Assembly: GCA_030647655.1 (NCBI GenBank)
Contig: JAUSJH010000018.1
Location: 1-62,484 of the forward strand
Source: a bacterium
GTDB taxonomy: Bacteria > Patescibacteriota > Minisyncoccia > Phycocordibacterales > UBA2100
Direction of reading: 5' to 3'
DNA length: 62,484 nucleotides
Both the position numbers and the translations under genes were made by a program. Below the pieces are notes generated by a model. It was given only the letters and a program-made list of their open reading frames with translations, ran no database searches and was not told where the DNA came from. The stretch's first letter is position 1. Every line of letters starts with the position of its first letter. Below are positions 18,383 to 56,925 of this stretch, in pieces.

Positions 18383-19627
18383 ATGAACGAACCGGCCAAG
18401 GATGCGGAAAACAGAGACCACAAAAAGCTGGGGAAGGAGCTCGATCTTTTCACCTTCTCCGACGCCGTCGGCAAAGGCCTTCCGCTCTGGACACCAAAAG
18501 GTTCAGTCATCCGTCGCGAGCTCGAGCGATTTATCGTAGACGAGGAGATCCGCCGCGGCTACCTGCATGTCTATACGCCCGATATTGCCAAGCTCGACCT
18601 CTACAAGAAATCCGGCCACTACCCGCACTACAAGGATTCGATGTATGCGCCGATAGTTATTGACGACGAGGAATACATGCTGCGGCCGATGACGTGCCCG
18701 CATCATTTCGAACTCTATCTCGACAAGCCGCACAGCTATCGAGAGCTCCCCATGCGCATCGCCGAACTCGCCAAGCTCTATCGCTATGAGCAATCGGGCG
18801 AGCTGATGGGCCTCCAGCGTGTACGCACATTCTGCCTCGCTGATGCGCACATCATCTGTGCCACCGAAGAGCAGGCGGCTGATGAAATCTCGAAATCTCT
18901 CGATCTTATCGAATACGTCGCGGGAGTCTTTGGTCTTAAACAGGAAACGGATTATCATTTCCGTCTCTCGCTCGGCGACAGGAATAATACGGGAAAATAC
19001 TACAAGAACGACGCCGCGTGGGAAAAGAGTGAAGCCCTTTTGCGCGACCTGCTCAAAAAACGCGGCGAGAAATTCGAGGAGGCAAAAGACGATGCCGCGT
19101 TTTACGGCCCAAAGATAGACGTCCAAATGAAGAACGCGAATGGCAAAGAAGACACTGCTTTCACCGTGCAATACGACTTTTGTATGCCCGACAGATTCGA
19201 CCTCACGTACGTCGCGACTGATGGCTCCAAGAAGCGCGCGTTCGTCGTACACCGCTCATCCATAGGCGCTATAGAGCGTATTGTGGCCTTCCTCATCGAA
19301 CATTACGCCGGTGCCTTCCCCCTCTGGCTCTCGCCGGTACAGGTGAAGCTCCTACCGATTTCCGAAAAGCACGCGGGGTATGCGAAAGAAATCCTCGAAC
19401 AACTCCGCGCCGAAAACATCCGCGTCGAGCTTGCCGAAGGAGATAGTTTGGGCAAGCGCATACGCGACGCCAAAATGGAGAAAGTTCCTTATGTACTTGT
19501 GGTCGGTGATGCGGAGGTTGAGGCAAAAACGGCCACACTCGAGGGCCGCGCGGGAAAAGTGGGCGCGCTACCAATCGCCGATATCATTGTGAAATTGAAA
19601 GAGGAAATACGAACGCGCGCCGCTTAG
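18383..19627 (+). CDS. thrS: threonine--tRNA ligase, short form (no N-terminal TGS/editing domains)
   Basis: Starts at RDHKKLGKELDLF; LRPMTCPHH, YRYEQSGEL.GLQRVR, AFYGPKID, HRSSIGAIER, anticodon domain. Confidence 0.96.
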   Translation: MNEPAKDAENRDHKKLGKELDLFTFSDAVGKGLPLWTPKGSVIRRELERFIVDEEIRRGYLHVYTPDIAKLDLYKKSGHYPHYKDSMYAPIVIDDEEYMLRPMTCPHHFELYLDKPHSYRELPMRIAELAKLYRYEQSGELMGLQRVRTFCLADAHIICATEEQAADEISKSLDLIEYVAGVFGLKQETDYHFRLSLGDRNNTGKYYKNDAAWEKSEALLRDLLKKRGEKFEEAKDDAAFYGPKIDVQMKNANGKEDTAFTVQYDFCMPDRFDLTYVATDGSKKRAFVVHRSSIGAIERIVAFLIEHYAGAFPLWLSPVQVKLLPISEKHAGYAKEILEQLRAENIRVELAEGDSLGKRIRDAKMEKVPYVLVVGDAEVEAKTATLEGRAGKVGALPIADIIVKLKEEIRTRAA

Positions 19628-19640
19628 ACGGCGCGCGCTC

Positions 19641-19675
19641 AACAAAAACTCCCCCGTTGGGGGAGTTTTTGTTTT
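19641..19675. terminator. bidirectional terminator between convergent genes
   Basis: aacaaaaactccccc-gtt-gggggagtttttgtt 15-bp stem. Confidence 0.85.
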
Positions 19676-19704: not shown

Positions 19705-21111
19705 TTAGTTGCGCGTAATTACGATGCGCGGAGCACTGCCATCCTTAGCGCGTGTGAGCACCATCGAATCAGTTGTCCCGATGCGAGTTGTCTCTACAGG
19801 CTGTGCCTCAAAGACCCTAAGCGCATCCACAAGATGCGCCGGGCGATCGCTTAGCGATATAGCTGGGAGATTCTGGAGGGGCGAGAGTGTCGGTTCGACA
19901 GGAGCTACGGCAACTACCGGAGTTTCCATTCTTACAACTTCCCTCTTTGAGCTTCCGAGCATCGCTCCGGCGAGCGCGAATGCGCCACCTTTGTAGTAGA
20001 CCAAGAGGTAGGCGCCGGCGGCTGCGAAGGAGAGCATCGAGAGCCAGTACATCGCGTTCCCTACCGGACCGAAATCGAAGCCGGTGTACGGGATCTGTGA
20101 GAGCGAGACGTACGAAGAGGTCGGAGTGTAGCGGAAGCTAGTCTGGCACGTGTTCGTACCACCTGGGCCCGTTACCGTCATCGTATAGATGGTGTTGCCA
20201 GTCGGGTACACCGCCCTCGTTCCGTAGGTCGAAACAGAACCAACGTTCGGGCTGATGTAGGCCGACGTCGCGTTCCCCGATGTCCAACTCAAGGTCGCCA
20301 ATTGGTTACTGTAGGAACCGTAATTGCCACTGGCGTTGTTTGAGATGGTGATTGTGCAGTACGGCTGGGGTTGCGTGTACGTCGGGGGGGTCGGGTACGT
20401 GGGATAGGTTGGGTAGACGTACTGGATCGGGTACGTGGTCTGGGTCTGCGAGACCGGCGTGACCACTGATACCGTGTTCGTGTTGACGTTGTTGTTATTG
20501 TTCGTGTTGGTGTTCACGATGTTAATCGGCTGCGCTGGATGCTGTTGCTGTTGCTGTTGCTGTTGTTGCTGCTGTTGCTGTTGCTGCGGCTGTTGCTGTT
20601 GCGGCCGTGGGTACGAAGGAGCGTAGTAGTTAGACGGCGCGCTGAAGGAGAACGGTCGCGAGGGAGAGTAACTTGAGCCGCCGCAACTTCCACATCCGCC
20701 GCCGCTGTAACCACAGTTCGAACCACAACCATAGTCGCGCTCCGAGTAACCTACTCCGTCTTGGACCGTGTACGTCTGATATGTGTCATACGTGTCATAA
20801 ACGTCGTACGCGTCCCATGCGTCATAGGTGTAATCGATGGAATCCGTATAACTCGGGTAGTAAGCATCGTACGTGTAGTCGATGGAGTCGGTGTAGCTTG
20901 GGTAGTAAGCATCGTACGTGTAGTCGATGGAGTCGGTGTAGCTTGGGTAATACGAACCGTATGTGTAGTCGATTGATTCGACATAACTTCCCGAGCAGTA
21001 ATCACACCCATAGCCTTCTTGTGCGAAGACTTGCGGTGCCGCTACCACAAAAAGACACATTATCATTACGGCAAGAATCCCGACACGCACACTATTTTGT
21101 AATGTATACAT
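19705..21111 (-). CDS. secreted low-complexity surface protein with IPYTG motif + transmembrane helix (candidate sortase substrate)
   Basis: Signal peptide, YDAYYPSYTDSIDYT repeats, Gly/Cys stretch, poly-Gln, Asn-rich tract, small Ig-like domain, LSQIPYTG then hydrophobic helix ending in YYK. Confidence 0.8.
   Translation of the reverse strand: MYTLQNSVRVGILAVMIMCLFVVAAPQVFAQEGYGCDYCSGSYVESIDYTYGSYYPSYTDSIDYTYDAYYPSYTDSIDYTYDAYYPSYTDSIDYTYDAWDAYDVYDTYDTYQTYTVQDGVGYSERDYGCGSNCGYSGGGCGSCGGSSYSPSRPFSFSAPSNYYAPSYPRPQQQQPQQQQQQQQQQQQQQQHPAQPINIVNTNTNNNNNVNTNTVSVVTPVSQTQTTYPIQYVYPTYPTYPTPPTYTQPQPYCTITISNNASGNYGSYSNQLATLSWTSGNATSAYISPNVGSVSTYGTRAVYPTGNTIYTMTVTGPGGTNTCQTSFRYTPTSSYVSLSQIPYTGFDFGPVGNAMYWLSMLSFAAAGAYLLVYYKGGAFALAGAMLGSSKREVVRMETPVVAVAPVEPTLSPLQNLPAISLSDRPAHLVDALRVFEAQPVETTRIGTTDSMVLTRAKDGSAPRIVITRN
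20855..20944. repeat. intragenic 45-bp tandem repeat (2 exact copies, degenerate flanking copies)
   Basis: gggtagtaagcatcgtacgtgtagtcgatggagtcggtgtagctt x2. Confidence 0.9.
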
Positions 21112-21151
21112 ACGACTCGTTAATTACTCGTTATTTTGGCTAATTACGTGC

Positions 21152-21179
21152 ATTATACTCATAAATCTCGACGTGTCAA
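21152..21179 (-). promoter_or_regulatory. consensus sigma70 promoter
   Basis: TTGACA-16nt-TATAAT on minus strand upstream of 21111. Confidence 0.8.
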
Positions 21180-21257
21180 GCCCCCGTTATAGGTAGTTTT
21201 GGGTCGCGGAATAGGAACATCCGCGACCCATTGCTCTTACTCATGTGCTTTCTCCGC

Positions 21258-21713
21258 TTAGGGCGAGACATAACCGGGGCAAGCTGGCCCCAAAAGGCAC
21301 ATCTCGAGCCGCCGAGTCTTCAGCACATCGGCTAGTTCCCCCGCGGCTCGGGTGCGTCGCGAATAGTACTGCACCACTCCGCCGGGTCCATAGACGCACA
21401 TGTAGACCTCTTCGGTTGCTTCACCGAACCAGCCGCAACCAACGCGATGGGTCACCCAGCCTGCCTTCACGTTCTTGTTGCGAGGAGCACGCCAGCGCGA
21501 TTTACCGGTCTCATCTCGAACGACAAGACCAGTTGTGCCCGCGATGGAGGGCGCGACGACCTCGACGAAGCAGCTCGTGCGGCCATGACCTCTGGAGCCC
21601 TCGCCCCAGCATGGGACGCCCGAACAAAGTTTCTTGGCCGCCTGAGCCGAAACTGGTGCCAAAGCGAGAAGAACCGTGGATAGAACAACAAAGATCACTT
21701 GAATCACTTTCAT
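21258..21713 (-). CDS. secreted Cys-containing hypothetical protein
   Basis: Signal peptide ending AQA-A, several Cys, GGAGG SD. Confidence 0.75.
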   Translation of the reverse strand: MKVIQVIFVVLSTVLLALAPVSAQAAKKLCSGVPCWGEGSRGHGRTSCFVEVVAPSIAGTTGLVVRDETGKSRWRAPRNKNVKAGWVTHRVGCGWFGEATEEVYMCVYGPGGVVQYYSRRTRAAGELADVLKTRRLEMCLLGPACPGYVSP

Positions 21714-21829
21714 GGCATCCTCCAGCCATTAGCTCCCGTACAACGCCCGAGTGCAGAAGGCTCTGTCCTTTATACGATGGACGTCATTAGGTAGTATCAC
21801 GGAGCACACATGAACGCAACATTAATATC

Positions 21830-21864
21830 AAAAAAGAAGAAGACGAGCTGGGTTGCAGCTCGCC
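21830..21864 (-). terminator. intrinsic terminator
   Basis: ggcgagctg-caacc-cagctcgtc + TTCTTCTTTTTT on minus strand. Confidence 0.7.
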
Positions 21865-21899
21865 TTCGCCGATGCGGAATAATCCGCAACGGAAGCCTT

Positions 21900-22394
21900 T
21901 CAAGTCTTCGGGCGCGTCCCGCACACCACGTGCGCGATGCCTTTGGCGCCGTCCGGACCAATCACCGCCTTGTCGTACCGATGACCGGGCGGCTTGCCCT
22001 TGCAGTTCGGGTCGTTGTTCAGGTCGGGCGAGACCTTCTGGAGCTCTGCCACGTTCGTCTCGCGACGAACGCAGGCGTCAATCTGGTCTACGTAGACCGA
22101 ATCTAGGACCAGGCAAGTTCCCTTCGCCGCAACTGGCGGAGCCGTCACGACCGGAGCCGCAGGAGGAGCCTTGGCCTCCTTTACGAGCTTGTTCAGCTGC
22201 TCGATTTGGGCCGTAGCAATCGGACCGCGGACGAAGTAGTCGTAGGCTGCGAGCCCGCCGAGGACGAGGACGAGCGCCACGGCACAACAGGCCGCGAAGC
22301 GACCGAGCCCACGATACCAAGGCGTCGATTTTTGATTGAGATTCCGTTTTCTCGCCGCACGGCGACGAGCAGCAAGCTGTTGTTTGGTCGGCAT
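21900..22394 (-). CDS. membrane-anchored hypothetical protein with Cys-containing outer domain
   Basis: Basic N-terminus, single TM, Pro/Ala linker, Cys pairs; GAGGAGG SD. Confidence 0.75.
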   Translation of the reverse strand: MPTKQQLAARRRAARKRNLNQKSTPWYRGLGRFAACCAVALVLVLGGLAAYDYFVRGPIATAQIEQLNKLVKEAKAPPAAPVVTAPPVAAKGTCLVLDSVYVDQIDACVRRETNVAELQKVSPDLNNDPNCKGKPPGHRYDKAVIGPDGAKGIAHVVCGTRPKT

Positions 22395-22477
22395 GGCTAT
22401 TTCCCTCCTCGGGTTAAGCCGGTTGAATCAAAGAGCGCGTCCCACCACGGGACGCACCCGTAGTTGACTCACGGAGG

Positions 22478-22505
22478 ATTATAGCACCCCAATCGGGATT
22501 GTCAA
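22478..22505 (-). promoter_or_regulatory. sigma70 promoter with extended -10
   Basis: TTGACA-16nt-TATAAT with TGn before the -10. Confidence 0.8.
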
Positions 22506-22532
22506 GGCTATTATATGGCTTAAACCGTGCAT

Positions 22533-22574
22533 AAAAAAGAAGCAGCGCCCCCTCCGTCGTAGAAGGAAGCGCTG
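22533..22574 (-). terminator. intrinsic terminator
   Basis: cagcgc...gcgctg stem followed by CTTCTTTTTT on minus strand. Confidence 0.65.
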
Positions 22575-22593
22575 TGTTCGGCATCGAGCCGAT

Positions 22594-23076
22594 TCAATAC
22601 CGCGGCAGAGACGTGCGCACTTCGCCGGTCCGCCGGTTGACATACACGGTCCGCTCGGATCCCGGAACGATGTGCGTCCGGAGGGATCCCGGAACAATGT
22701 GCGTCCGGAGGGATCCCGGAACAATGTGCGTCGCGGTGGTCTTGCGGGGCTGTTGGCGAGTCTGCCTACCATGGGCGTCTTGCCTCTGCCCATGACCACG
22801 CATGTCGTGACGGGCGTGACCACGATTTGCGCGATGCGCTGGCGCCGCGTGACGATACGGGCGATGCGATTTCGCGTGACTGCGCTTTGCGCGATGCGCT
22901 GGCGCTACGTGACCGCGGTAGACGTTGCGGTCCTCGTAGGTGTTGATGGGGCTGCCATAACGCGGTTCGCCCTTGCGGAACACTTTGTCCTCGTAGGTGC
23001 CTGAGAAGGCGGTGGCCGGAGCGAGCGAAAGTGTGGCGCCGATCAAGGCGAGTGATAGAACGACTCTTTTCAACAT
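22594..23076 (-). CDS. secreted His/Arg-rich hypothetical protein with THIVPGS(L/E)R tandem repeats
   Basis: Signal peptide; AGGAGG SD; 27-bp repeat x~3 at 22657-22732. Confidence 0.75.
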   Translation of the reverse strand: MLKRVVLSLALIGATLSLAPATAFSGTYEDKVFRKGEPRYGSPINTYEDRNVYRGHVAPAHRAKRSHAKSHRPYRHAAPAHRANRGHARHDMRGHGQRQDAHGRQTRQQPRKTTATHIVPGSLRTHIVPGSLRTHIVPGSERTVYVNRRTGEVRTSLPRY

Positions 23077-23139
23077 GCTGTCCTCCTGACAGTTGATGTT
23101 GCCCGCAAACTCCTACGGAGTCTGTACGGACTAGTTGGG

Positions 23140-23168
23140 ATAATACATTAGAACTGCCCAGAAGTCAA
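23140..23168 (-). promoter_or_regulatory. sigma70-type promoter
   Basis: TTGACT-17nt-TATTAT. Confidence 0.6.
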
Positions 23169-23205
23169 TAGTGTGAAAAACCCAGAAAATAAGCCCCAAA
23201 TGAGA

Positions 23206-23292
23206 CTACCGAGCGAATGTGACCGCGCGCCCTATCTCGACAGCGTAGCCGATTTCTACGGGACGCGCGACCTCGACTGCATGAGCGATGGT
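23206..23292 (-). pseudogene. 3' remnant of a paralogue of the His-hexapeptide repeat gene
   Basis: Translates TIAHAVEVARPVEIGYAVEIGRAVTFAR*, 22/28 identical to the C-terminus of 23900-24505. Confidence 0.8.
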
Positions 23293-23305
23293 GAAGGGAA
23301 TGAAA

Positions 23306-23587
23306 TCATCGATCTTGCGCGCCATGAAAAATACCCAGAATGACAACCTCTCTGCCCTTTCGGCTCAATTCATACACAATCACGTAAGGCAATCCTTTTA
23401 CCAAAAGTTCATGGGTATTTCTTGCAGCGCCAATCCGGCCCATTCGGGGAAAGAGGCCGATTGAACGAACGGTGAGATGGATACGGACAACGATTCCGAC
23501 TGCCGCGGACGGATTGCGCCCTTTGACATATGTGTATATTTCGGCAACATGCCGACGAGCTTCAAGTGTGTACTGCGGACCCTTCAT
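23306..23587 (-). CDS. RelE/ParE-family toxin
   Basis: YTLEARRHVAEIYTY...FPRMGRIG...HELLVKGLPYVIVY...VVILGIFHGAQDR; ATGA overlap with upstream small gene. Confidence 0.85.
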   Translation of the reverse strand: MKGPQYTLEARRHVAEIYTYVKGRNPSAAVGIVVRIHLTVRSIGLFPRMGRIGAARNTHELLVKGLPYVIVYELSRKGREVVILGIFHGAQDR

Positions 23588-23817
23588 AGACCGCAGCTCT
23601 TCCAGAGCGCGGTCATTTCTCGCTTTGTCGCAAGACGTGTTTTGCCGGTGTGCAGATTGCGTTGAATTCGTTTTACTTCCCTGACCTGTTCGTCCGTAAG
23701 ATGATAACCCCCGTTACCGCTCGTCATATGGACGAACAACGCCTCCGCAGCCGCATCCTGATTTTCGGCGGGAAGTTCCCGGAGCTGTTCGATCGCCTGT
23801 TCAAGCAACTTGGTCAT
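23584..23817 (-). CDS. putative antitoxin (addiction-module type)
   Basis: 77 aa, MTKLLEQAIEQLRELP...LTDEQ, translationally coupled upstream of the toxin. Confidence 0.75.
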   Translation of the reverse strand: MTKLLEQAIEQLRELPAENQDAAAEALFVHMTSGNGGYHLTDEQVREVKRIQRNLHTGKTRLATKREMTALWKSCGL

Positions 23818-23899
23818 ACCCTAAAGTGTACCACAACCCCAAATATCAAGGCAACGAAAACCCCAGCGAACCTTCGGTACACAAGTCAGACTTGTGTAT

Positions 23900-24505
23900 T
23901 TAGCGGGCGAATGTGACCGCGCGACCTACTTCAACGGCGTGGGCGATTTCGACAGGACGCGCGACTGAAACTGGGTGAGCGATAGAGACCGAGTGGGCGA
24001 TGCTGACAGGATGCGCGATGTTGACCGCGTGAGCGATCTCCACCGGATGAGCTATATCGATAGGGCGACCGATAGCGTCAGCTTTGATGGAGGCAATGTC
24101 TACGGCGTGAGCGATGTCTACGATGTGGCCAATATCGACGGGACGCGCGACATCGACGATGTGCCCTACTTCAACCGGATGAGCGATGTTGACGGGATGT
24201 GCGATGAACACAGGGTGCGCTACAGAAACAGGATGAGCGATGTTGACGGGATGTCCGACGTTCACGACGTGGCCCACGCTCACGGGATGGCCCACGCCAA
24301 CGGAGTGCCCGACCGATGCCGGGTGTCCGACAGAGGCGGGATATCCTGCCGAAAATGGATGTCCGATGCTAACGGGCTCCGCGATGGAGACCGGATAGGC
24401 AATCACGCATCCACACGTTGCCGCAGAGACGATTTGTGCAGGGTCTATAAGAGACCCACCTAGGACAGCTACGCCAAGCGCGAGGAGAAGCGTCCTTTTT
24501 TGCAT
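23900..24505 (-). CDS. secreted His-rich hexapeptide-repeat protein (predicted beta-solenoid)
   Basis: Signal peptide, CGC, ~26 repeats of [IV][AG]H[PA]V[SNED]; alternative start at 24526. Confidence 0.8.
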   Translation of the reverse strand: MQKRTLLLALGVAVLGGSLIDPAQIVSAATCGCVIAYPVSIAEPVSIGHPFSAGYPASVGHPASVGHSVGVGHPVSVGHVVNVGHPVNIAHPVSVAHPVFIAHPVNIAHPVEVGHIVDVARPVDIGHIVDIAHAVDIASIKADAIGRPIDIAHPVEIAHAVNIAHPVSIAHSVSIAHPVSVARPVEIAHAVEVGRAVTFAR

Positions 24506-24533
24506 TGTACGGATTGTCTGAAACATACGTATG

Positions 24534-25253
24534 TTAGAGCGAGCCAATGAAATCCGCCTCGACGATGAAGCGTGCGCTCTTACCGGTCAGTGTGTCGCAC
24601 GTGACGAGCGTGAGCTTCGTCCCCTGTGTGGGCGAAAGGTCTATCGTCGTATCGCCCACATCAACGCTGCGTACGGAGGTTACGCTGTAGAGATAGTTTT
24701 TGCCTTTACCCTCGAGCGTAATCGTATCGCCCACGGAAAGTTCCGGCGCTCGATTGAAAGCCTTATACATTTGGTTTTTCACGACCGGCAAGTGCGACGA
24801 GTGGCCGAAGATGAGAACGTTCCCTTCCTCGCCGAGACGCGCGGAATCGACGTAGCGAATGGGCCCTTTCTTTAGATATTCATCCAGTACGGAAAGGTCG
24901 CGACTTTCGATATTTTGCACCGGCAAATCGAGGTCGATGGCCGAGATTTTGATGCGCTCGGGCAACGTCGTCTCTACAGGTGTCGCGGTTTTGGATGTGA
25001 CAATTTCTTCACCAAGTTCCGGCAGATCTGAGAGCGCAAGTGTCTCTGTTCTCACTCCGCCGTAAGCGGAGACCGGCTCGGTTCCACTTGTGGTGAGCGA
25101 TCCGCCAGCTGGCGGAGAACCATCTATGTAGTACGGTACGAAACCGATAGAATCCGCGACGGAGACCGCGCAGAAAAATACCATTACGACGGCGGCAAAA
25201 AACACCCGCTTCGGCGGTCTTTCGTGAACTTGATATTGAGGACGTGTACTCAT
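24534..25253 (-). CDS. sortase
   Basis: N-terminal TM, RIKISAIDLDLPV, GNVLIFGHSS (His), TLVTC (Cys), ARFIV (Arg) catalytic triad. Confidence 0.9.
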   Translation of the reverse strand: MSTRPQYQVHERPPKRVFFAAVVMVFFCAVSVADSIGFVPYYIDGSPPAGGSLTTSGTEPVSAYGGVRTETLALSDLPELGEEIVTSKTATPVETTLPERIKISAIDLDLPVQNIESRDLSVLDEYLKKGPIRYVDSARLGEEGNVLIFGHSSHLPVVKNQMYKAFNRAPELSVGDTITLEGKGKNYLYSVTSVRSVDVGDTTIDLSPTQGTKLTLVTCDTLTGKSARFIVEADFIGSL

Positions 25254-25363
25254 AGAGAGCCGCGATAGTACACTATAAATATACCTTTGTCAATCCCACT
25301 CTTTCGGAATAAATAATGGGCGGGATTGACAAAGAGCAAGATATATGTAAGTATACCGATAAT

Positions 25364-26320
25364 ATGGCAGAACAGGTGCACACAGAGACCCGCACAACCA
25401 CACACACGCAAGTAGAGCAGAGGCAGAGCATGCTTTCCAACGTCCTCGCGATTATCGGCTTCATCATTCTCATTGTCATCGTGCTCTGGGGTCTTTTCCA
25501 CATCGCCTCTCTTAGTCAGCCGTGGCTCTCTTCCCTCTTCAAGAAGGCAGCTCCTGCACTCACGGTTACCATTCCCTCAAACGCGATTTCTGGAGATTCC
25601 ATCACCGTAAGCTGGAAATATTCGACACCCGAGAAGGGTATGTACGCGTTTTTGTACCAGTGCAAAAATAATTTTCGTTTTGAAACAACGGGTAACGCCT
25701 CTGCGATTCCCTGCGGTGCGGCATATGCCATTCAAACGACAAGCAACACGGTGGGCGTTACGCCAACCCTCTCCGGCACGGCCTCTACGAGCGTCCCCGT
25801 TTCTGTCATCTTCATACCAAGCGCGACAAGCTCGAAGCAGGCACAGGGAACTGCAACAGTCGTCGTGCATCCGAAAGTTGTGACGATGACTCCGGTGGAG
25901 CCAGCACCCGTAACTCCTGCAAAACCGGTAACCCCGACGCCGGTCAACCGCGGCCCTGCCGATCTCTCCGTCAGCATTATCTCCGTCACGTCGGACGGTT
26001 CGGGCAACGCGGTCGCGACCTTTGATATCGGCAACGTCGGCGGGAACGCTTCGGGCTCGTACTACTTCACCGCACAGCTTCCGATGAACGGCGGCTACAC
26101 ATACACTTCTCCCGTCCAATACTCGCTTGCGCCCGGTGACCACATCGTAAACACCCTGCGCTTCGCGCAAGCAGTATCCGGAAACGTCTCCGTCGTTGTC
26201 GACCCGCAGAATATGGTGAGCGAGTCGAGCGAGAGCAACAATTACACCTCGCAATTTCTCAACACGCCCTACAACTACAACCAGCCGTACTATCCAAACC
26301 AGTACCCGTACGTGTACTAA
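25364..26320 (+). CDS. membrane-anchored CARDB-domain protein
   Basis: N-terminal TM; Pro/Thr linker; ADLSV...IGNVG...LAPG...VVVDPQNMVSESSESNN CARDB pattern; Tyr/Pro-rich tail. Confidence 0.8.
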   Translation: MAEQVHTETRTTTHTQVEQRQSMLSNVLAIIGFIILIVIVLWGLFHIASLSQPWLSSLFKKAAPALTVTIPSNAISGDSITVSWKYSTPEKGMYAFLYQCKNNFRFETTGNASAIPCGAAYAIQTTSNTVGVTPTLSGTASTSVPVSVIFIPSATSSKQAQGTATVVVHPKVVTMTPVEPAPVTPAKPVTPTPVNRGPADLSVSIISVTSDGSGNAVATFDIGNVGGNASGSYYFTAQLPMNGGYTYTSPVQYSLAPGDHIVNTLRFAQAVSGNVSVVVDPQNMVSESSESNNYTSQFLNTPYNYNQPYYPNQYPYVY

Positions 26321-41318: not shown

Positions 41319-42307
41319 GCACTCTTCCGCGACACTACTTTCTTCACTGCTTCCACAATGTGGGAGACACCCATACCGTAGTGCTCTATCAATTCTTTTG
41401 GTGTGCCGGATTGGCCGAATTTGTCGTGCACGCCGACAAACTCGATTGGTGTGGGACATACCTCTGCGAGTAATTCAGCGATTGCGCCTCCCAAACCTCC
41501 CATTATCTGGTGTTCTTCGACGGTAACAACGGCACCCGCGCCACGCGCAAGCGAGTGGATTATCTCGCGGTCGAGTGGTTTTATTGTGTGCACATTGGTG
41601 ACCGAAACCGCGATGCCTATTTCTTCTAACTCCCGCGCCGCGAGAAGTGCTTGGTAGAGGAGGTGCCCTGTCGCGAAAATCGCGACGACAGGAGAGTCGG
41701 ATTTCCACACGACATTCGCCTTCCCTATTTCAAATGGTGTCTCGGCTGTTGTCATGATCGGCGTCTTGTCGCGTCCGAAGCGCATGTAGCCGGGCTTGCC
41801 GGCCTTAGCGAGCGCGAGCGTTGCCTTGCGCCCCTCTTCAGAGTCGCACGGAGAAATAACTATCATATTCGGAAGCGCGCGCATGAGCGCGATGTCCTCA
41901 AGCGCTTGGTGTGTGGCGCCATCGGGCCCGACAGAGACCCCCGCATGCATGCCGCAGACCACGACTGGCACATTGTTGAGACAAATAGTCGTCCGTATCT
42001 GCTCCCAATTCCTCCCCGGAGAGAACGTCGCGTACGAGGTGATGAAGGGGAGCTTGCCGTAATTGGCCATGCCCGCGGCGACCGTCGCCATATTCTGTTC
42101 GGCAACACCCACCTGCACAAAACGCTCCGGAAATGCTTTTTGGAAATGGTGCGCCTGCGTTGATTCTGCAAGGTCAGCCGTCAAGACGACGACTCGCTCA
42201 TCTAGTTTCCCCGCTTCAACGACACCCTTGCCAAACCCCTCGCGTGTCGAGGCCATGTCGGGTTTATCGAAAATATTAGCGGCAAGTTTTGCTTCTGGAT
42301 TGATCAT
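41315..42307 (-). CDS. transketolase C-terminal (pyrimidine-binding) subunit
   Basis: LTADLAEST, VGVAEQNM, VGPDGATHQALED, VTVEEH, GQSG. Confidence 0.93.
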   Translation of the reverse strand: MINPEAKLAANIFDKPDMASTREGFGKGVVEAGKLDERVVVLTADLAESTQAHHFQKAFPERFVQVGVAEQNMATVAAGMANYGKLPFITSYATFSPGRNWEQIRTTICLNNVPVVVCGMHAGVSVGPDGATHQALEDIALMRALPNMIVISPCDSEEGRKATLALAKAGKPGYMRFGRDKTPIMTTAETPFEIGKANVVWKSDSPVVAIFATGHLLYQALLAARELEEIGIAVSVTNVHTIKPLDREIIHSLARGAGAVVTVEEHQIMGGLGGAIAELLAEVCPTPIEFVGVHDKFGQSGTPKELIEHYGMGVSHIVEAVKKVVSRKSA

Positions 42308-45300
42308 ATATATGATAGCGAGTGTCTTAAGGTATTCATGAGCCAAGTGAAAAATCTCTCTACAATGCCGGGTGAGGAGGCGGTGGCGAGGTTGGAGGAG
42401 GAGTTCGTATCGGAAGTCACGGCTACCGGAAGCGCAGCGACGTAATCAACTGCAATATTGGGACGCACGTCGCTTGCGGAGGCACCGGCGCGGCAGACGC
42501 GGACGTAACGCGCAGGGCTCGCCGAAATGTTCGCGAAATTTTGTGTGCGTTTAGCCGCCGAGAATACAAGCGTGCCGAGCGTTGTCCAGTTTATTTTGTC
42601 GGTACTTGCGAATACATTGCCTCCGGAATTTGTGCCGCAATAGGTTCCGGTGCAAGAGTCGCCGCAGATAGAATCGGGTGTCCAGTAGTCTACGCGCAGA
42701 TTGGAAAAAGACCGCACTGAGCCAAAATCTATATCAATGCATGAAGTGACGGCGTGCGCATCGACGATGTAGGCGATCTGGCCGTCTCTAAATGAGAGAC
42801 CGGCGGGTTGTGAGTCATCTGTCCTTGCACTCGAAACAGAACAGTAATTCGGCACGGTCGCCGCCGTTGCCCCCGGAGGTATAACGCCCGTAACGATGCC
42901 GGTAATCCATTGAGAAGCTCCCGTGACAGCACACGATGCAAATTGGTATGCCCTGGAGAGTACTCCATTGGTGCAGACGCGACTTTGAGAAACGCACTGT
43001 GCTCCGGCAGGGACAGATGATGTTTGGTATGCGGTCACCGATGCACCATTCGCAACGGTGCTGCCGTTGAAGGTACATGATGCACCGGGGCTGGTATTGG
43101 AAACGGTAACGGAGACTGCCGCGGACGTTCTTGTGTTCCCCGCCGCATCGCGCGCGACTGCGGTGATCGAATGTGACCCGTTCGAGACTGTAGTGGTGTT
43201 CCATGATGTTGAGTACGAAGACGCCGTGCCTGTTGTGTCTTCTGCACCGACATTCGTACCATCAACCTTGAACTGCACGCCTGCAACTGCGATGTTGTCA
43301 GAGGCTGTGGCGGTGATGTTCACTGTGCCCGAGACGGTTCCTGTGGCAGGTGCGGTGAGAGAGACTGTGGGTGCGGTGGTGTCGGACGAGCCGCCGGTGA
43401 GAGGAATTTCTACCTCGACTACTGTTGGAATACCAATCGAGCCGTCTGCAACTTTATGATTTTTGTCTCTGACCTCTTGAAGGAAAAGGATCTTCCCATT
43501 CACGAGAGCCGCGCCGCTCTTCGCTTTCATCGTGAATACTTGATTGTAGGAATATTCAGTACGCGAATACCCAGTTAGGGAAAACGTGCGGACATTCCAT
43601 GTGTTCCCGCCATCCATACTCGTCGCTATCTTTCCTCCGCCGAGCACGTCGATACGCGAGCCGTTGACCACGATATTGTGCTGGGACCCGACTATTCCGG
43701 GGATCGGCGCACCTCTGCTCCACGCACCAGTAGTTTTGTTGATTGTATAGAGATACACAGGAACCCCGGTTGCTTCTGTTCGCGCTCCCACAAGATAAAG
43801 CGTGTTTTGCCCATCAAAATCCATATCTTCTTGATGAAACTGCGTGTCATTCGCTCGATTTCCCAACTCTACTGCGCTCACTTTGTTAGACGCATAGTTG
43901 CTCAAGAGTACGAGTTTGTTCTTTTCGCGCTGCGCATTATTTTCTGCGCCCGGATACAAGAACGCACCTGCCACAATCAAGAGTTTATCGCCCCATGCAT
44001 ACATGTTGGGATAAATATACAGAAGGCCCGGTTCATTCAATACCACGTACGGGCCACCCCAAACGCCGTTGCGGTAGGCCCCGCAGCGAAAGTTTTGCAC
44101 TCCGGTACCGTTCGAACTCCTGTCGTACCCGCAGGTGTACAGCGTATCGGAGTCAGCCGCATATGCGACGCCAAGATATCCGATATATCTGCCCTGCGGC
44201 CAACCCGACATATCAACACTGATAGGTGCCGAGAGCGTACCGCTCGAGGCCCTCGTGAATTTGTAATGGACCATCTGATTCACGCTAGCGCCCCCCTCCG
44301 TCGCATATATGAGATGAAGCGTGCCATTCTTATCGACGACAAGGCTCGGCGGCTGGTGCGCGTTGTGCGCAGGAATGTGCTTCGCGAGCGTCCAGCCCGC
44401 CGTAGGGTTATTCTCGTCAAACTTGTAGATGTCAACGGGAAAACCGACTCTCTCATTAGTGCCCACTGTCCTGTTCATGGGGATTTGCAACGTCGCGTAG
44501 CGATAGCGCCCGACACGGATGTACTTCGAACTATGACGCCCCCAGAGAGTTTCGAACTCCGCGTTTGGATCCGGGCCAATCACGCGCCGCGCTGAGTATG
44601 TGCTAGTCGTTGGTGCATCCACGGAGCACGACGCATATTGATACGAGGTATTTCCTGAGAGTACGCCATTGGTACAAGTGCGCTGGACGCTTGAGCACGT
44701 TTGTCCATACGGTACGGAAGGCGTGTTGTAAAACGCTCGCGACTGTCCGCTCGGGACCTCCACATCATCCAACGTGCAGGAGGCGGCCGGCGCGTTCGAC
44801 ACCATCAGATCCCTTGCCTTGCTCGTACCCCCAACGGTCGTGACGGTAAGGCTATAGGTGGCCGGAGGAATGTCGGAGGGAACAGTGAAGCTGATGGTGG
44901 TGCCGTCAGAAGAGGGTGCCGGTATGGCGGTGCTCTGTGCGCCGAAGAACGTATCCCAAATGAGCGCGACGGCGGCGGCGAGGATGCCATTGGGCTTCTT
45001 GGTGAGGCGGACGGTATTGCTTGGGGCGAAGTTGGCACCGGTGATTATCTCCTGTGCTCCTTGTGCAACCGGATTCGGAGACAGGCCGGAGATAGTAGGA
45101 AGAGGCAGGCTCGGGGTGCACGTGGAGAACGCGTAGGTTCCCGTGAGAGTGCCGTTTCCGCAAACACGTGACTGCGATGCACACGTTTGTCCCACGGGGA
45201 CAGACGCGGTTTGATGCGCGGTCACACTTGCACCGTGCGCGACAGTTTGTCCATTGAACGTACAGGAGAGAGGTGCGGCCGTGGAGCAGGTACGGTACTG

Positions 45301-46740
45301 GTGGGTGGTCGGTGCAGAGAGGACTCCGTTGGCACAGGTGCGTGTTTGTGCGATGGATGAACAAACTTGGCCGAAGGCGACGGTGCGTGCGGAGTACGCG
45401 GTCACGAAGGAACCGTGGGAGACGGTGGTGCCGTCGAGGGTGCAGGAAGAAGGTTGACCCGGAGTGCATGTGGCGTTTTGGTATGTTCCCGACAGCACTC
45501 CATTAGTACAGAGTCTTGACTGTGAGATGCAGGTTTGGTCGAAGGGTACGGAGGCACTCTGGTATGCGGTGATGGAGTTTCCGTTCAATACCTGTGCTCC
45601 GTTGAAAGTACAGCTGGTGGGTTGTCCCGGCGTGCAGGCGGAGTATGCGTATGTGCCGGAGAGAGAGCCGTTCGTACACGTGCGGGTTTCAGAGGTGCAG
45701 GTATTGCCGACGGGGACGGAGGAGGATTGATAGAAGGTGTGGGAAGAGGCGTGCGGGATTGAGACGCCGTTTTGTGTGCAAGAGGCGGGTTCTCCTGTTG
45801 TGCAGGAGGTGTATATATTGAGGGAGCTTCCGGTGAGGACTCCGTCGGAGCAAGTACGGGACTGCGCGTACGTGGCACATTGTTCGCCGAAGGGAGCGTT
45901 GGTGCGGGAATACAGCGTCTGGGATGCGCCGTGTGAGAACGTGACACTGCCGAGTGTGCAGGAGCGAGGTGGTGGGGGTGGAGGGCTTCCTCCACCTCCG
46001 CCTCCTCCGCCGCCTCCACCTCCTCCTCCACCGCCTCCACCTCCGGTACTTCCTCCACCAGTTGTTCCTCCTGTTCCAGTACCAGTTCCTGTTCCACCTC
46101 CGGCGGCTGCTCTCGTTGCAATGAACGTTCTCGTCCTCGGACCCACTGCTCCGTATCCTGTTGTGTTTGGTGAGCCTGTAGAGACGATGCCGCTCTGCAC
46201 TTGGAATCGTTGTACGGCGGCTTCGGTGAGAGCGCCGAAGAAGCCCGTGGCGGAGTCGGTAGAGAGAAAGCCTTCTGCGATGAGAATGTGCTGGAGGATG
46301 ATGACGTCTTCTCCGGTACTTCCTTTGGATAGAGTGCGGGTGATGGCAGAGGTTGTTGGAGTTGGTGTGGGAGTTGGAGTAGGAGTGGCAACTGTTCCTC
46401 CGCAGGAGAGGGTGATGGCGGCACGGGTCCTTGGTCCCACTGCTCCGTATCCTGTGGTTGAGGGTGTGCCGCTGGAGACGAGGGAGTGAGATGCCTGCCA
46501 CTGCTTGACCACCGCTTCGGTGGTGGGGCCGAAGTATCCGGTCACGGAGTCTTGGGTGAAGTCTGCGTATTCTTGTGTGAAGAAGGTCTGGAGGGCTTTG
46601 ACATCGTTGCCCGAGACACCGCGCGATAGAGTGCGGGTGAATGTGGGGCAGGTGGAGGCGTGGGAAAAGAGAGGCATCGCGAGGAAGAGCCCCGTGAAGA
46701 TTACGAGAACGATGTGACGAGTTAGTGTCATGTTGATCAT
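42304..46740 (-). CDS. giant modular surface protein (2x peptidoglycan-binding domain, poly-Gly/Pro linker, 7x four-Cys repeat, IPT/TIG-like, BNR/Asp-box propeller, Ig-like, Cys-rich discoidin-like domain)
   Basis: LSRGVSGNDVKALQ...TGYFGPTTEAVVKQWQ x2; SCTxNG...C...RxCxNGxL...Y..C repeats; SMDGGNTW; DTTAPTVSLTAP...VAGVQFKVDG. Confidence 0.85.
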   Translation of the reverse strand: MINMTLTRHIVLVIFTGLFLAMPLFSHASTCPTFTRTLSRGVSGNDVKALQTFFTQEYADFTQDSVTGYFGPTTEAVVKQWQASHSLVSSGTPSTTGYGAVGPRTRAAITLSCGGTVATPTPTPTPTPTTSAITRTLSKGSTGEDVIILQHILIAEGFLSTDSATGFFGALTEAAVQRFQVQSGIVSTGSPNTTGYGAVGPRTRTFIATRAAAGGGTGTGTGTGGTTGGGSTGGGGGGGGGGGGGGGGGGGSPPPPPPRSCTLGSVTFSHGASQTLYSRTNAPFGEQCATYAQSRTCSDGVLTGSSLNIYTSCTTGEPASCTQNGVSIPHASSHTFYQSSSVPVGNTCTSETRTCTNGSLSGTYAYSACTPGQPTSCTFNGAQVLNGNSITAYQSASVPFDQTCISQSRLCTNGVLSGTYQNATCTPGQPSSCTLDGTTVSHGSFVTAYSARTVAFGQVCSSIAQTRTCANGVLSAPTTHQYRTCSTAAPLSCTFNGQTVAHGASVTAHQTASVPVGQTCASQSRVCGNGTLTGTYAFSTCTPSLPLPTISGLSPNPVAQGAQEIITGANFAPSNTVRLTKKPNGILAAAVALIWDTFFGAQSTAIPAPSSDGTTISFTVPSDIPPATYSLTVTTVGGTSKARDLMVSNAPAASCTLDDVEVPSGQSRAFYNTPSVPYGQTCSSVQRTCTNGVLSGNTSYQYASCSVDAPTTSTYSARRVIGPDPNAEFETLWGRHSSKYIRVGRYRYATLQIPMNRTVGTNERVGFPVDIYKFDENNPTAGWTLAKHIPAHNAHQPPSLVVDKNGTLHLIYATEGGASVNQMVHYKFTRASSGTLSAPISVDMSGWPQGRYIGYLGVAYAADSDTLYTCGYDRSSNGTGVQNFRCGAYRNGVWGGPYVVLNEPGLLYIYPNMYAWGDKLLIVAGAFLYPGAENNAQREKNKLVLLSNYASNKVSAVELGNRANDTQFHQEDMDFDGQNTLYLVGARTEATGVPVYLYTINKTTGAWSRGAPIPGIVGSQHNIVVNGSRIDVLGGGKIATSMDGGNTWNVRTFSLTGYSRTEYSYNQVFTMKAKSGAALVNGKILFLQEVRDKNHKVADGSIGIPTVVEVEIPLTGGSSDTTAPTVSLTAPATGTVSGTVNITATASDNIAVAGVQFKVDGTNVGAEDTTGTASSYSTSWNTTTVSNGSHSITAVARDAAGNTRTSAAVSVTVSNTSPGASCTFNGSTVANGASVTAYQTSSVPAGAQCVSQSRVCTNGVLSRAYQFASCAVTGASQWITGIVTGVIPPGATAATVPNYCSVSSARTDDSQPAGLSFRDGQIAYIVDAHAVTSCIDIDFGSVRSFSNLRVDYWTPDSICGDSCTGTYCGTNSGGNVFASTDKINWTTLGTLVFSAAKRTQNFANISASPARYVRVCRAGASASDVRPNIAVDYVAALPVAVTSDTNSSSNLATASSPGIVERFFTWLMNTLRHSLSYI

Positions 46741-56891: not shown

Positions 56892-56915
56892 ATACGCATT
56901 CCATTGTACTACGAG
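56770..56915. repeat. 146-bp promoter+signal-anchor cassette, copy 1
   Basis: 144/146 identical to 58106-58251; partial third copy at 54509-54574. Confidence 0.92.
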
Positions 56916-56925
56916 GTATTTCATT

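What the first reader, a model, noticed from the sequence alone, without database searches (positions are those of the whole stretch)
19705..26320. Candidate sortase-dependent surface-display system with a non-canonical IPYTG sorting signal
A sortase with an intact His/Cys/Arg triad (24534-25253) lies within ~3.5 kb of a secreted protein (19705-21111). That protein ends its extracellular part with LSQ-IPYTG, followed by a hydrophobic helix and a Lys. This resembles LPxTG, but with Ile for Leu and a ~90-aa cytoplasmic tail ending in a beta-rich motif instead of a short basic tail. The sortase is followed on the same strand (probably co-transcribed) by a His-repeat secreted protein and is divergent from a CARDB protein. 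Sortases are best characterised in Firmicutes and Actinobacteria. A CPR version could anchor proteins to its own wall, polymerise them, or even ligate them to a host envelope.
Basis: partly seen in the sequence, partly recalled or inferred. Interest (0 to 1): 0.82.

Follow-up and report, generated by a model that had tools for sequence, protein, structure and literature searches.

The report
CPR sortase with PYTG-tagged surface protein
An ultra-small, uncultured Kaiserbacteria-type bacterium keeps an intact but unclassified sortase a few genes away from a secreted surface protein whose invariant IPYTG tag, a membrane helix and, unusually, a long conserved cytoplasmic tail make it the likely but unproven substrate of a lineage-specific version of Gram-positive cell-wall anchoring.

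Summary
ORF 19705-21111(-) encodes a 468-aa protein: signal peptide, Tyr/Asp repeats, polyQ, one Cys-bracketed Ig-like domain, VSLSQ-IPYTG, a TM helix and a 95-aa tail ending in a beta-hairpin. ORF 24534-25253(-) is a true sortase (Pfam E 8e-19; H151, C219 and R228 invariant) that reaches no curated class.

PYTG is present in all ~350 homologues examined. AlphaFold places it in a disordered linker between the Ig domain and the TM helix. The same tag also occurs on relatives with a short basic tail, some with unrelated ectodomains and some directly beside the sortase. One LPYTG variant passes NCBI's LPXTG-anchor model.

The sortase lies upstream on the same strand in 38 of 42 related species loci, and in 26 of 26 detections in a sister VPYTG lineage. 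However, the whole gyrB-CARDB-sortase-...-PYTG-thrS-dnaE block is syntenic, so linkage alone proves little.

The best reading (~0.7) is a sortase substrate cut at T|G and attached to the cell's own wall. Lys-mediated pilus polymerisation is unlikely, because the ectodomain has no lysine. The conserved tail is unexplained. I rate this a new variant of a known kind. Cleavage is untested.

The parts
19705..21111 (-). Gene for the 468-aa PYTG surface protein: signal peptide, Tyr/Asp repeats, Cys cluster, polyQ/polyN, Ig-like domain, sorting-type signal, TM helix, cytoplasmic tail
21022..21111 (-). Sec-type signal peptide (residues 1-30, ...VFA|QE)
   Evidence: 169/190 full-length family members have an N-terminal hydrophobic stretch
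20137..20361 (-). Cys-bracketed Ig-like beta-sandwich (residues 251-325). Relatives have 1-7 tandem copies
   Evidence: AlphaFold pLDDT ~95. C8 and C78 invariant. Only generic PKD/Ig fold matches. Tandem copies seen
20080..20109 (-). Sorting-type signal VSLSQ-IPYTG (residues 335-344). Predicted cut between T343 and G344
   Evidence: P, Y, T and G are 100% conserved, Q at least 95% and L(-3) at least 90% in 116 module ORFs. Lies in a low-pLDDT linker
20056..20079 (-). Conserved extracellular juxtamembrane block FDFGPVGN
   Evidence: Absent from some short-tailed relatives
19993..20055 (-). Transmembrane helix AMYWLSMLSFAAAGAYLLVYY
   Evidence: AlphaFold helix at model residues 104-128, pLDDT 84-96
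19708..19992 (-). 95-aa cytoplasmic tail. The last 21 residues (19708-19770, DSMVLTRAKDGSAPRIVITRN) form a conserved beta-hairpin motif
   Evidence: D204 and R223 invariant; M, G, P, I, I at least 90%. Hairpin pLDDT 76-87. The motif is found only on PYTG proteins, 79/79
21152..21179 (-). Perfect sigma-70 consensus promoter (TTGACA-16-TATAAT) 41 nt upstream of the ATG
19610..19641 (-). Terminator-like hairpin (14 bp stem) after the PYTG gene
24534..25253 (-). Sortase, 239 aa: N-terminal TM anchor (25149-25211), disordered linker, catalytic domain (24537-24962) with H151 (24801-24803), C219 in TLVTC (24597-24599) and R228 (24570-24572)
25011..25040 (-). Invariant LALSDLPELG segment in the sortase linker. 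It resembles the substrate signal, with Leu in place of the scissile Thr
   Evidence: Absent from sortases of the VPYTG lineage
25265..25293 (-). Promoter-like site (10/12 match) 12 nt upstream of the sortase ATG
23900..24547 (-). Secreted His-rich hexapeptide-repeat protein, overlapping or abutting the sortase stop. A homologue directly follows the sortase in about half of related loci
25316..26320 (+). N-terminally TM-anchored CARDB/Ig-like protein, divergent from the sortase. The pairing is conserved in both the IPYTG and VPYTG lineages
21258..23076 (-). Variable island of three small secreted or membrane proteins (151, 164 and 160 aa) between the sortase and the PYTG gene. None has a sorting signal
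23306..23817 (-). ParE toxin/antitoxin pair inserted into the cluster. Not part of the system

Best explanation
This is the Kaiserbacteria-lineage version of sortase-mediated surface display. The 468-aa protein is exported by Sec and held in the membrane by its single TM helix, with the VSLSQ-IPYTG signal exposed just outside the membrane in a flexible linker. The membrane-anchored sortase has an intact His151/Cys219/Arg228 triad and falls outside the curated classes. Inferred step: the sortase recognises [ILV]PYTG, cuts between Thr343 and Gly344 to form a thioacyl intermediate, and transfers the ectodomain (Tyr/Asp repeats, polyQ, Ig-like domain) to an amine of the cell's own peptidoglycan precursor. 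The stub Gly344-Asn468 stays in the membrane. It comprises the conserved FDFGPxGN block, the TM helix and a cytoplasmic tail ending in the PRIVIxR hairpin. Because the stub is conserved, it or the uncut precursor probably has a second role, such as retention, positioning or signalling. Shown here: the gene anatomy, the sortase fold and triad, the invariance and portability of the tag, and the conserved locus. Inferred: recognition, cleavage, the acceptor, and any role of the tail.
For: The sortase is genuine: Pfam PF04203 E 8.4e-19; the triad aligns to solved sortases and is invariant; the AlphaFold model matches class E, A, C and D sortase structures at E ~1e-9. The tag is [IV]PYTG in 120/120 homologues and IPYTG in 115/116 further representatives. 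The module profile finds 891 clusters (50% identity) at E<=1e-3 among 1.84 billion proteins. P, Y, T and G are 100% conserved in 116 ORFs from related loci, with I, L, V or M at position 1. The tag lies in a low-confidence linker between a confident Ig domain and the TM helix, as expected for a linear recognition motif. Topology is right: signal peptide, one TM helix, Lys/Arg after it. Portability: 21/115 module ORFs end 32-74 aa after the tag with a short basic tail. Two of these (L072, L077) lack the Ig domain and the FDFG block, and several lie 4-66 bp upstream or 364-430 bp downstream of the sortase. The L072 LPYTG C-terminus passes NCBIfam TIGR01167 LPXTG_anchor (17.2 vs 15.9 bits). No other recurrent xPx[TSA][GANSD]+TM pattern was found in real genes in ~1.2 Mb of related loci. 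Sortase is upstream on the same strand in 38/42 species loci with at least 6 kb upstream (47/47 co-directional), and in 26/26 detections (7/7 with at least 6 kb) in the VPYTG sister lineage. A wall to anchor to is indicated by PG_binding_1 and SLT proteins in the window and a YkuD protein in L001. Ile-, Val- and Tyr-first signals are established for pneumococcal pilins (PMC5640630).
Against: There is no biochemical evidence of cleavage. The window's own signal matches no curated sorting-signal model, even at E<=10. The median tail after the tag is 109 aa, with a conserved C-terminal motif. As far as I know, no characterised sortase substrate has that. The residues after TG (FDFGPxGNxxYW) are more conserved than in canonical signals, which could mean the region works uncut. 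Sortase-PYTG linkage is embedded in a syntenic block that includes gyrB, pheT, thrS and dnaE in nearly all loci of both lineages, so it is no tighter than linkage to housekeeping genes. Four loci with at least 7 kb upstream show no sortase (L024, L049, L058, L082).
Confidence: 0.7

Rival explanations
1. The protein is an uncut bitopic membrane protein. Here PYTG-FDFGPxGN is a conserved juxtamembrane structural or interaction element (possibly a relic of a sorting signal). The protein works as an intact transmembrane link between a variable ectodomain and a cytoplasmic partner that binds the C-terminal hairpin. The nearby sortase acts on other proteins, such as the short-tailed ones.
For: The tail and post-TG block are long and conserved, and the tail motif is exclusive to this family. 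The VPYTG lineage also keeps a conserved but different C-terminal motif, and some members have 258-282 aa tails. Linkage to the sortase can be explained by synteny. No curated sorting-signal model matches.
Against: An invariant xPxTG placed exactly where sortase signals lie, in a disordered linker, is hard to explain as a structural element. The same extended tag (V-S-L-[ST]-Q-x-P-Y-T-G) is shared with canonical short-tailed proteins next to the sortase. No other candidate substrate class was seen in ~1.2 Mb.
Confidence: 0.2
2. The sortase polymerises the PYTG proteins into a pilus- or fibre-like structure, as class C sortases do.
For: The architecture of tandem Ig-like domains resembles that of pilins and adhesins. 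Some genomes have 2-4 tandem PYTG paralogues. A sortase-adjacent relative gives a weak, sub-threshold SpaA/prealbumin-fold hit (20.4 vs 23.1 bits).
Against: The window protein's ectodomain has no lysine. 114/187 family ectodomains have none, and Lys frequency is 0.4% against 4.5% in the tails. No Lys is invariant in the Ig domain. Only one sortase is in the locus, with no class C-type DPW/DPF lid motif noted in its sequence. The CARDB-like partner has no conserved ectodomain Lys either.
Confidence: 0.05
3. The sortase ligates the ectodomain to a host-cell envelope amine, attaching the episymbiont covalently to its host.
For: The only support is the general episymbiotic lifestyle inferred for CPR (abstracts) and the variable, adhesin-like N-terminal regions.
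Against: No data here point to a host acceptor. The sortase is membrane-anchored with a ~60-residue linker, which fits action at the cell's own membrane surface. The organism appears to have its own peptidoglycan.
Confidence: 0.03

Closest known systems
Housekeeping sortases (class A, e.g. S. aureus or S. pyogenes SrtA; class E, e.g. Streptomyces coelicolor SrtE1 and Thermobifida fusca SrtE) with LPXTG/LAXTG cell-wall sorting signals
   Same: N-terminally membrane-anchored sortase fold with a His/Cys(TLxTC)/Arg triad. The substrate has a signal peptide and xPxTG followed by a hydrophobic helix and basic residues. Short-tailed relatives have the full canonical tripartite signal, and one passes TIGR01167.
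   Different: The sortase reaches no curated class threshold: best is class E at 38 bits vs a 160 cutoff, and TIGR01076 scores 36.7 vs 39.35. It is 20-27% identical to solved structures. The signal is an extended V-S-L-[ST]-Q-[ILV]-P-Y-T-G with an invariant Tyr at the normally variable X position. The main substrate family carries a ~100-aa conserved cytoplasmic tail instead of ending after a few basic residues.
Pneumococcal pilus subunits RrgB (IPQTG), RrgA (YPRTG) and RrgC (VPDTG) with class C sortases (PMC5640630)
   Same: A non-Leu first residue (Ile or Val) in an xPxTG signal, and Ig-like or tandem-domain ectodomains.
   Different: No pilin-motif lysine (0 Lys in the ectodomain). There is a single sortase, not a set of class C enzymes.
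CPR sortase family fam000526 of Meheust et al. 2019 (PMC6744442)
   Same: That paper reports a sortase family in more than half of CPR genomes. This sortase is most likely a member, though this was not tested against their family.
   Different: The passages on sortase found in that paper do not mention a cognate sorting signal or substrates. The PYTG module, its tail and the conserved locus are not described in any paper I could find.
Pam pili of Ca. Mycosynbacter (CPR, PMC13278184)
   Same: CPR-specific surface structures built from Ig-like-fold subunits.
   Different: Pam pilins assemble by donor-strand exchange with chaperone-usher-like factors and occur mainly in Saccharimonadia and Microgenomatia. 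No sortase or PYTG signal is involved, and no relation is shown here.

Membership tests
Sortase superfamily (Pfam PF04203) | Sortase domain above the Pfam gathering score | tested here: met
   68 bits vs a 26.6 cutoff, E 8.4e-19
Sortase superfamily (Pfam PF04203) | Catalytic His, Cys (TLxTC) and Arg present and aligned | tested here: met
   H151, C219 (TLVTC) and R228 align to 5GO6/2KW8 and are invariant in 56 homologues
Sortase superfamily (Pfam PF04203) | Eight-stranded beta-barrel sortase fold | tested here: met
   The AlphaFold catalytic domain has pLDDT 80-97. Foldseek matches 136 PDB chains at E<=1e-3, and the top 50 listed are all sortases
Sortase superfamily (Pfam PF04203) | Transpeptidase activity on a sorting signal | not testable with these tools
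   Needs a biochemical assay
Curated sortase classes A-F and GN (NCBIfam) | Score above the class-specific cutoff | tested here: not met
   Best is class E at 38.1 bits vs 160. Classes D, C, F and GN score 23-32 bits vs ~160. TIGR01076 scores 36.7 vs 39.35
LPXTG-type cell-wall sorting signal (TIGR01167 / Pfam Gram_pos_anchor) | Match to the curated anchor model | tested here: not met
   The window C-terminus gives no hit at E<=10 in Pfam or NCBIfam. Only the short-tailed LPYTG relative L072 passes TIGR01167 (17.2 vs 15.9 bits)
LPXTG-type cell-wall sorting signal (TIGR01167 / Pfam Gram_pos_anchor) | xPxTG pentapeptide followed by a hydrophobic segment, on a protein with an N-terminal signal peptide | tested here: met
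   IPYTG at residues 340-344, helix at 353-373, signal peptide at 1-30
LPXTG-type cell-wall sorting signal (TIGR01167 / Pfam Gram_pos_anchor) | The protein ends in a short positively charged tail right after the hydrophobic segment | tested here: not met
   A 95-aa tail follows in the window protein, and the family median is 109 aa after the tag. The feature is met only in the 18% short-tailed class
LPXTG-type cell-wall sorting signal (TIGR01167 / Pfam Gram_pos_anchor) | The signal is portable across unrelated passenger domains | tested here: met
   L072 and L077 lack the Ig domain. L009, L086 and P0095 carry an additional domain type, and N-terminal regions are highly variable
LPXTG-type cell-wall sorting signal (TIGR01167 / Pfam Gram_pos_anchor) | Cleavage between Thr and Gly and linkage to peptidoglycan | not testable with these tools
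   Needs biochemistry or proteomics
Sortase-assembled pilins | A conserved nucleophilic Lys (pilin motif) in the subunit | tested here: not met
   0 Lys in the ectodomain, and no invariant Lys in the family

The most novel reading that the evidence does not exclude
The sortase acts as a maturation (site-1-type) enzyme on a two-part precursor. One cut at PYT|G yields a wall-linked, rapidly evolving ectodomain. It also yields a separately functional membrane stub, whose conserved juxtamembrane block and cytoplasmic C-terminal motif (PRIVIxR hairpin here, IDPFIxSQIxRA in the VPYTG lineage, folded 260-280-aa domains elsewhere) report or position surface assembly from inside the cell. In the IPYTG clade, the sortase would in addition be gated by its own linker pseudo-substrate (VALSxLPxLG).
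Probability: 0.2. Interest if true: 0.8.

Novelty: new variant of a known kind. Interest (0 to 1): 0.6.

Why it matters
How CPR/Patescibacteria build their envelope and display the proteins they use to contact hosts is largely unknown. Sortases were known to be enriched in CPR, but I found no published substrate or signal. A defined tag ([ILV]PYTG) and a conserved locus would make that question directly testable with one recombinant enzyme and one peptide. The locus contains a sortase, a CARDB-like partner and one to four PYTG proteins, and the window's PYTG gene has a consensus-strength promoter. The tag would also allow prediction of the sortase-displayed surface proteome across hundreds of Paceibacteria genomes. 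The conserved cytoplasmic tail behind a sortase-type signal breaks the textbook rule that the signal ends the protein. If cleavage occurs, this would be a case where the leftover C-terminal fragment is under selection, suggesting that surface anchoring is coupled to something inside the cell. A sortase with a strict Tyr at the X position and extended upstream recognition could also be useful as an orthogonal ligation enzyme.

Tried and rejected
Genome-wide motif counts, sortase copy number and phyletic co-occurrence therefore could not be done. I substituted ~1.2 Mb of related loci plus 0.44 Mb of metagenome loci.
2. I first took the near-universal sortase-PYTG linkage as strong evidence. I downgraded it after finding that the whole pheT-gyrB-CARDB-sortase-...-PYTG-thrS-dnaE block is syntenic. 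This also holds in the divergent VPYTG lineage, so no independent genomic context was obtained.
3. Covariation test of the sortase linker pseudo-substrate against the substrate motif: VPYTG-lineage sortases lack LPxLG altogether. There is no simple covariation, so the idea stays a side observation.
4. CARDB-like partner as a Lys acceptor: it has no conserved ectodomain lysine.
5. Fold search of the substrate C-terminal model gave only generic Ig/PKD matches, none at E<=1e-3. A sequence search against PDB found nothing.
6. Relation to the new CPR Pam pili (PMC13278184): different taxa and a different assembly mechanism. Rejected as a match.
7. CnaB/SpaA domains in sortase-adjacent relatives: only a sub-threshold Pfam hit, not counted as evidence.
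8. A literature search for 'IPYTG' returned only unrelated papers.
9. Structure prediction returns no coordinates, so docking of the linker or the tag in the sortase groove could not be examined.

Full report
**Observation.**
ORF 19705-21111(-) encodes a 468-aa protein. In order it has:
- a Sec-type signal peptide (residues 1-30);
- 15-residue Tyr/Asp repeats, a Cys cluster, a polyQ run and an Asn/Thr-rich stretch;
- one Ig-like domain bracketed by two invariant Cys (residues 251-325);
- VSLSQ-IPYTG (335-344), then FDFGPVGN;
- a 21-residue hydrophobic helix (353-373), then Lys374;
- a 95-aa tail ending DSMVLTRAKDGSAPRIVITRN.

ORF 24534-25253(-) is a sortase. It scores 68 bits on Pfam PF04203 (E 8.4e-19). 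GH (H151), TLVTC (C219) and R228 align to solved sortases and are invariant in 56 homologues. The His-repeat gene overlaps its 3' end, and a CARDB-domain gene is divergent from it. In the six-frame scan of the window, only one xPx[TSA]G hit lies in a plausible gene and is followed by a TM-like helix.

**Organism and wall.**
Named homologues of both proteins come from Candidatus Kaiserbacteria and other Paceibacteria/Parcubacteria. The window also encodes PG_binding_1 and SLT-domain proteins, and a relative's cluster holds a YkuD protein. A peptidoglycan wall is therefore likely.

**The tag is an invariant linear motif.**
- All 120 best homologues carry [IV]PYTG, 118 of them IPYTG.
- A 51-position profile of the tag plus TM helix (A1) finds 891 cluster representatives at E<=1e-3, and 351 at E<=1e-10, among 1.84 billion proteins.
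- Of the 116 new representatives among the top 150, 115 have IPYTG.
- In 116 module ORFs from related loci, P, Y, T and G are 100% conserved, Q(-1) is at least 95% and L(-3) at least 90%. Position 1 is I, with rare L, V or M.
- AlphaFold (69-sequence alignment) gives a confident Ig sandwich (pLDDT ~95) and TM helix. The tag sits between them in an unstructured segment of pLDDT 50-65. That is how an enzyme recognition motif looks, not a structural element.

**Family architecture.**
Members have a signal peptide (169/190), a highly variable Tyr/Asp/Gly/Ser/Thr-rich repeat region, and 1-7 tandem Cys-bracketed Ig-like domains. These are followed by the tag, the TM helix and the tail. Ectodomains are nearly free of lysine: none in the window protein, none in 114/187 members, and 0.4% overall against 4.5% in the tails.

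**Two tail classes.**
Most members have a long tail, median 109 aa after the tag. It ends in a conserved T.D.M....G..PRIVI.R motif, predicted as a beta-hairpin. The motif is found only on PYTG proteins, 79 of 79.

However, 21 of 115 module ORFs in related loci stop 32-74 aa after the tag with a short basic tail. That is the canonical tripartite sorting signal.
- L072 (…SLTQ-LPYTG-…RLRLVG*) and L077 lack both the Ig domain and the FDFG block.
- L009, L018 and L086 lie 4-66 bp upstream of the sortase, and L072 and L077 lie 364-430 bp downstream.
- The L072 C-terminus passes NCBIfam TIGR01167 LPXTG_anchor, 17.2 vs 15.9 bits.
- The window's own signal matches no curated model.

So the tag is portable and grades into the canonical signal. 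No other recurrent xPx[TSA][GANSD]+TM pattern occurs in real genes in ~1.2 Mb of related loci.

**The sortase.**
It has an N-terminal TM helix, a ~60-residue disordered linker and a confident catalytic domain. That domain matches class E, A, C and D structures about equally, at E ~1e-9 and 20-27% identity. It reaches no NCBIfam class cutoff; the best is class E at 38 vs 160 bits. It is a true sortase of no curated class.

**Genomic linkage and its limit.**
A scan of one genome per species found 264 module loci.
- In the 79 loci kept, a clade sortase is present in 38 of the 42 with at least 6 kb of upstream sequence.
- It is always on the same strand, 47 of 47, at 0.36-8.5 kb.
- But almost every locus shows the same order: pheT-gyrB-CARDB(-)-sortase-[His-repeat]-variable small secreted genes-PYTG gene(s)-thrS(-)-dnaE(-).
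- A metagenome scan for VPYTGLDLG recovered a sister lineage with a much more divergent sortase (140-176 bits vs 300-370 on the same HMM). The synteny is the same: 26 of 26 sortases are upstream and co-directional, and 7 of 7 loci with at least 6 kb upstream have one.

The association is therefore ancient and stable. It is no tighter than linkage to thrS, so it cannot by itself prove functional coupling.

**Transcription.**
The PYTG gene has a perfect TTGACA-16-TATAAT promoter 41 nt upstream and a 14-bp-stem terminator after it. It is its own unit and is probably strongly expressed. The sortase has a 10/12 promoter 12 nt upstream and is tightly coupled to the His-repeat gene.

**Mechanism.**
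The most likely reading (~0.7) is sortase cleavage at T343|G344 and transfer of the ectodomain to the cell's own wall precursor.
- Polymerisation through lysine is disfavoured by the lysine-free ectodomain.
- Host ligation has no support.
- The main rival (~0.2) is that the long-tailed proteins act uncut as bitopic proteins.

The conserved stub is unexplained. The VPYTG lineage also keeps a conserved but different C-terminal motif ([GD]ID[PS]FI.SQI.RA), and some members have 258-282-aa tails. A conserved cytoplasmic end behind the signal is therefore a general, old property of the family.

**Side observation.**
In 116 of 120 sortases of this clade, the disordered linker holds V-A-L-S-x-L-P-x-L-G. 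This mirrors the substrate's V-S-L-[ST]-Q-[IL]-P-Y-T-G, with Leu at the scissile Thr position. It could be a cis pseudo-substrate or lid. VPYTG-lineage sortases lack it, so its meaning is open.

**Literature.**
- Sortases are known to be enriched in CPR (PMC6744442).
- 'Sortase motifs' on CPR surface proteins have been mentioned (PMC5220378).
- Ile-, Val- and Tyr-first signals are known in pneumococcal pilins (PMC5640630).
- No held paper contains IPYTG in this sense, and I found none that describes a CPR sortase signal, its substrates or the tail.

**Earlier scan notes.**
Earlier notes of this scan describe the same pairing in other genomes. They are unchecked AI notes. I used one, (V/L)PYTGLDLG, to design the metagenome scan, and I verified what I cite.

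**Verdict.**
I rate it a new variant of a known kind, with interest 0.6. Cleavage, the acceptor and the role of the tail remain to be shown.

Noticed in passing
window 25011-25040 (-): The sortase's disordered linker holds an invariant LALSDLPELG. The consensus V-A-L-S-x-L-P-x-L-G occurs in 116/120 clade members and mimics the substrate signal V-S-L-S-Q-I-P-Y-T-G, with Leu at the scissile Thr position. It may be a cis pseudo-substrate or lid. Sortases of the VPYTG lineage lack it.
   Followed up: partly
window 21152-21179 (-) and 22478-22505 (-): There are two perfect 12/12 sigma-70 consensus promoters (TTGACA-16-TATAAT) within 1.4 kb. One lies before the PYTG gene and one before the 164-aa membrane protein gene. 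Each downstream gene is followed by a strong terminator-like hairpin.
   Followed up: partly
window 20095-21021 (-), ectodomain of the PYTG protein: The 309-aa ectodomain has no lysine (Tyr 15%, Thr 13%, Ser 13%, Gln 10%). Across the family, Lys is 0.4% in ectodomains against 4.5% in tails. This could reflect avoidance of sortase self-ligation, protease resistance, or simply repeat composition.
   Followed up: partly
L072:6349-7320, L077:5802-6887, L009:3026-4876, L018:89-2194, L086:10001-11785: A second class of [IL]PYTG proteins has short basic tails and sits directly beside the sortase. Two members lack Ig domains. L009, L086 and P0095 carry IKETFD...VVFKN domains with a weak, sub-threshold SpaA/prealbumin-fold hit.
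   Followed up: partly
L087-L156 (metagenome loci): The sister VPYTG-LDLG lineage has the same synteny. Its tails end in a different conserved motif, [GD]ID[PS]FI.SQI.RA. L089 and L143 have 258-282-aa tails ending ...SSYS.G.TGAK.ALTRALA.LGA. Sortases of this lineage carry a VDALPDP-type motif just after the TM helix.
   Followed up: partly
window 23209-23817 (-): A ParE toxin/antitoxin pair is inserted inside the surface-protein cluster. Next to it is an ORF fragment at ~23209 that is similar to the His-repeat protein (phmmer hit).
   Followed up: no
window 25316-26320 (+): An N-terminally anchored CARDB/Ig-like protein is the most constant neighbour of the sortase, divergently transcribed in both lineages. 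Its conserved residues include a Cys pair and a C-terminal Tyr-rich end, but no conserved ectodomain Lys. Its role is unknown.
   Followed up: partly
window 42304-46740, 52135-54552, 54828-56924, 58827-62480 (all -): Several very large predicted surface proteins lie elsewhere in the window, with PG_binding_1, Big_7, right-handed beta-helix and Peptidase_S74 chaperone domains. None carries a PYTG signal.
   Followed up: no
window 25212-25253 (-), sortase N-terminus: The short cytoplasmic N-terminus of the sortase has a conserved KPP (P14 invariant). It could be a contact point for the substrate's cytoplasmic tail, but this was not tested.
   Followed up: no
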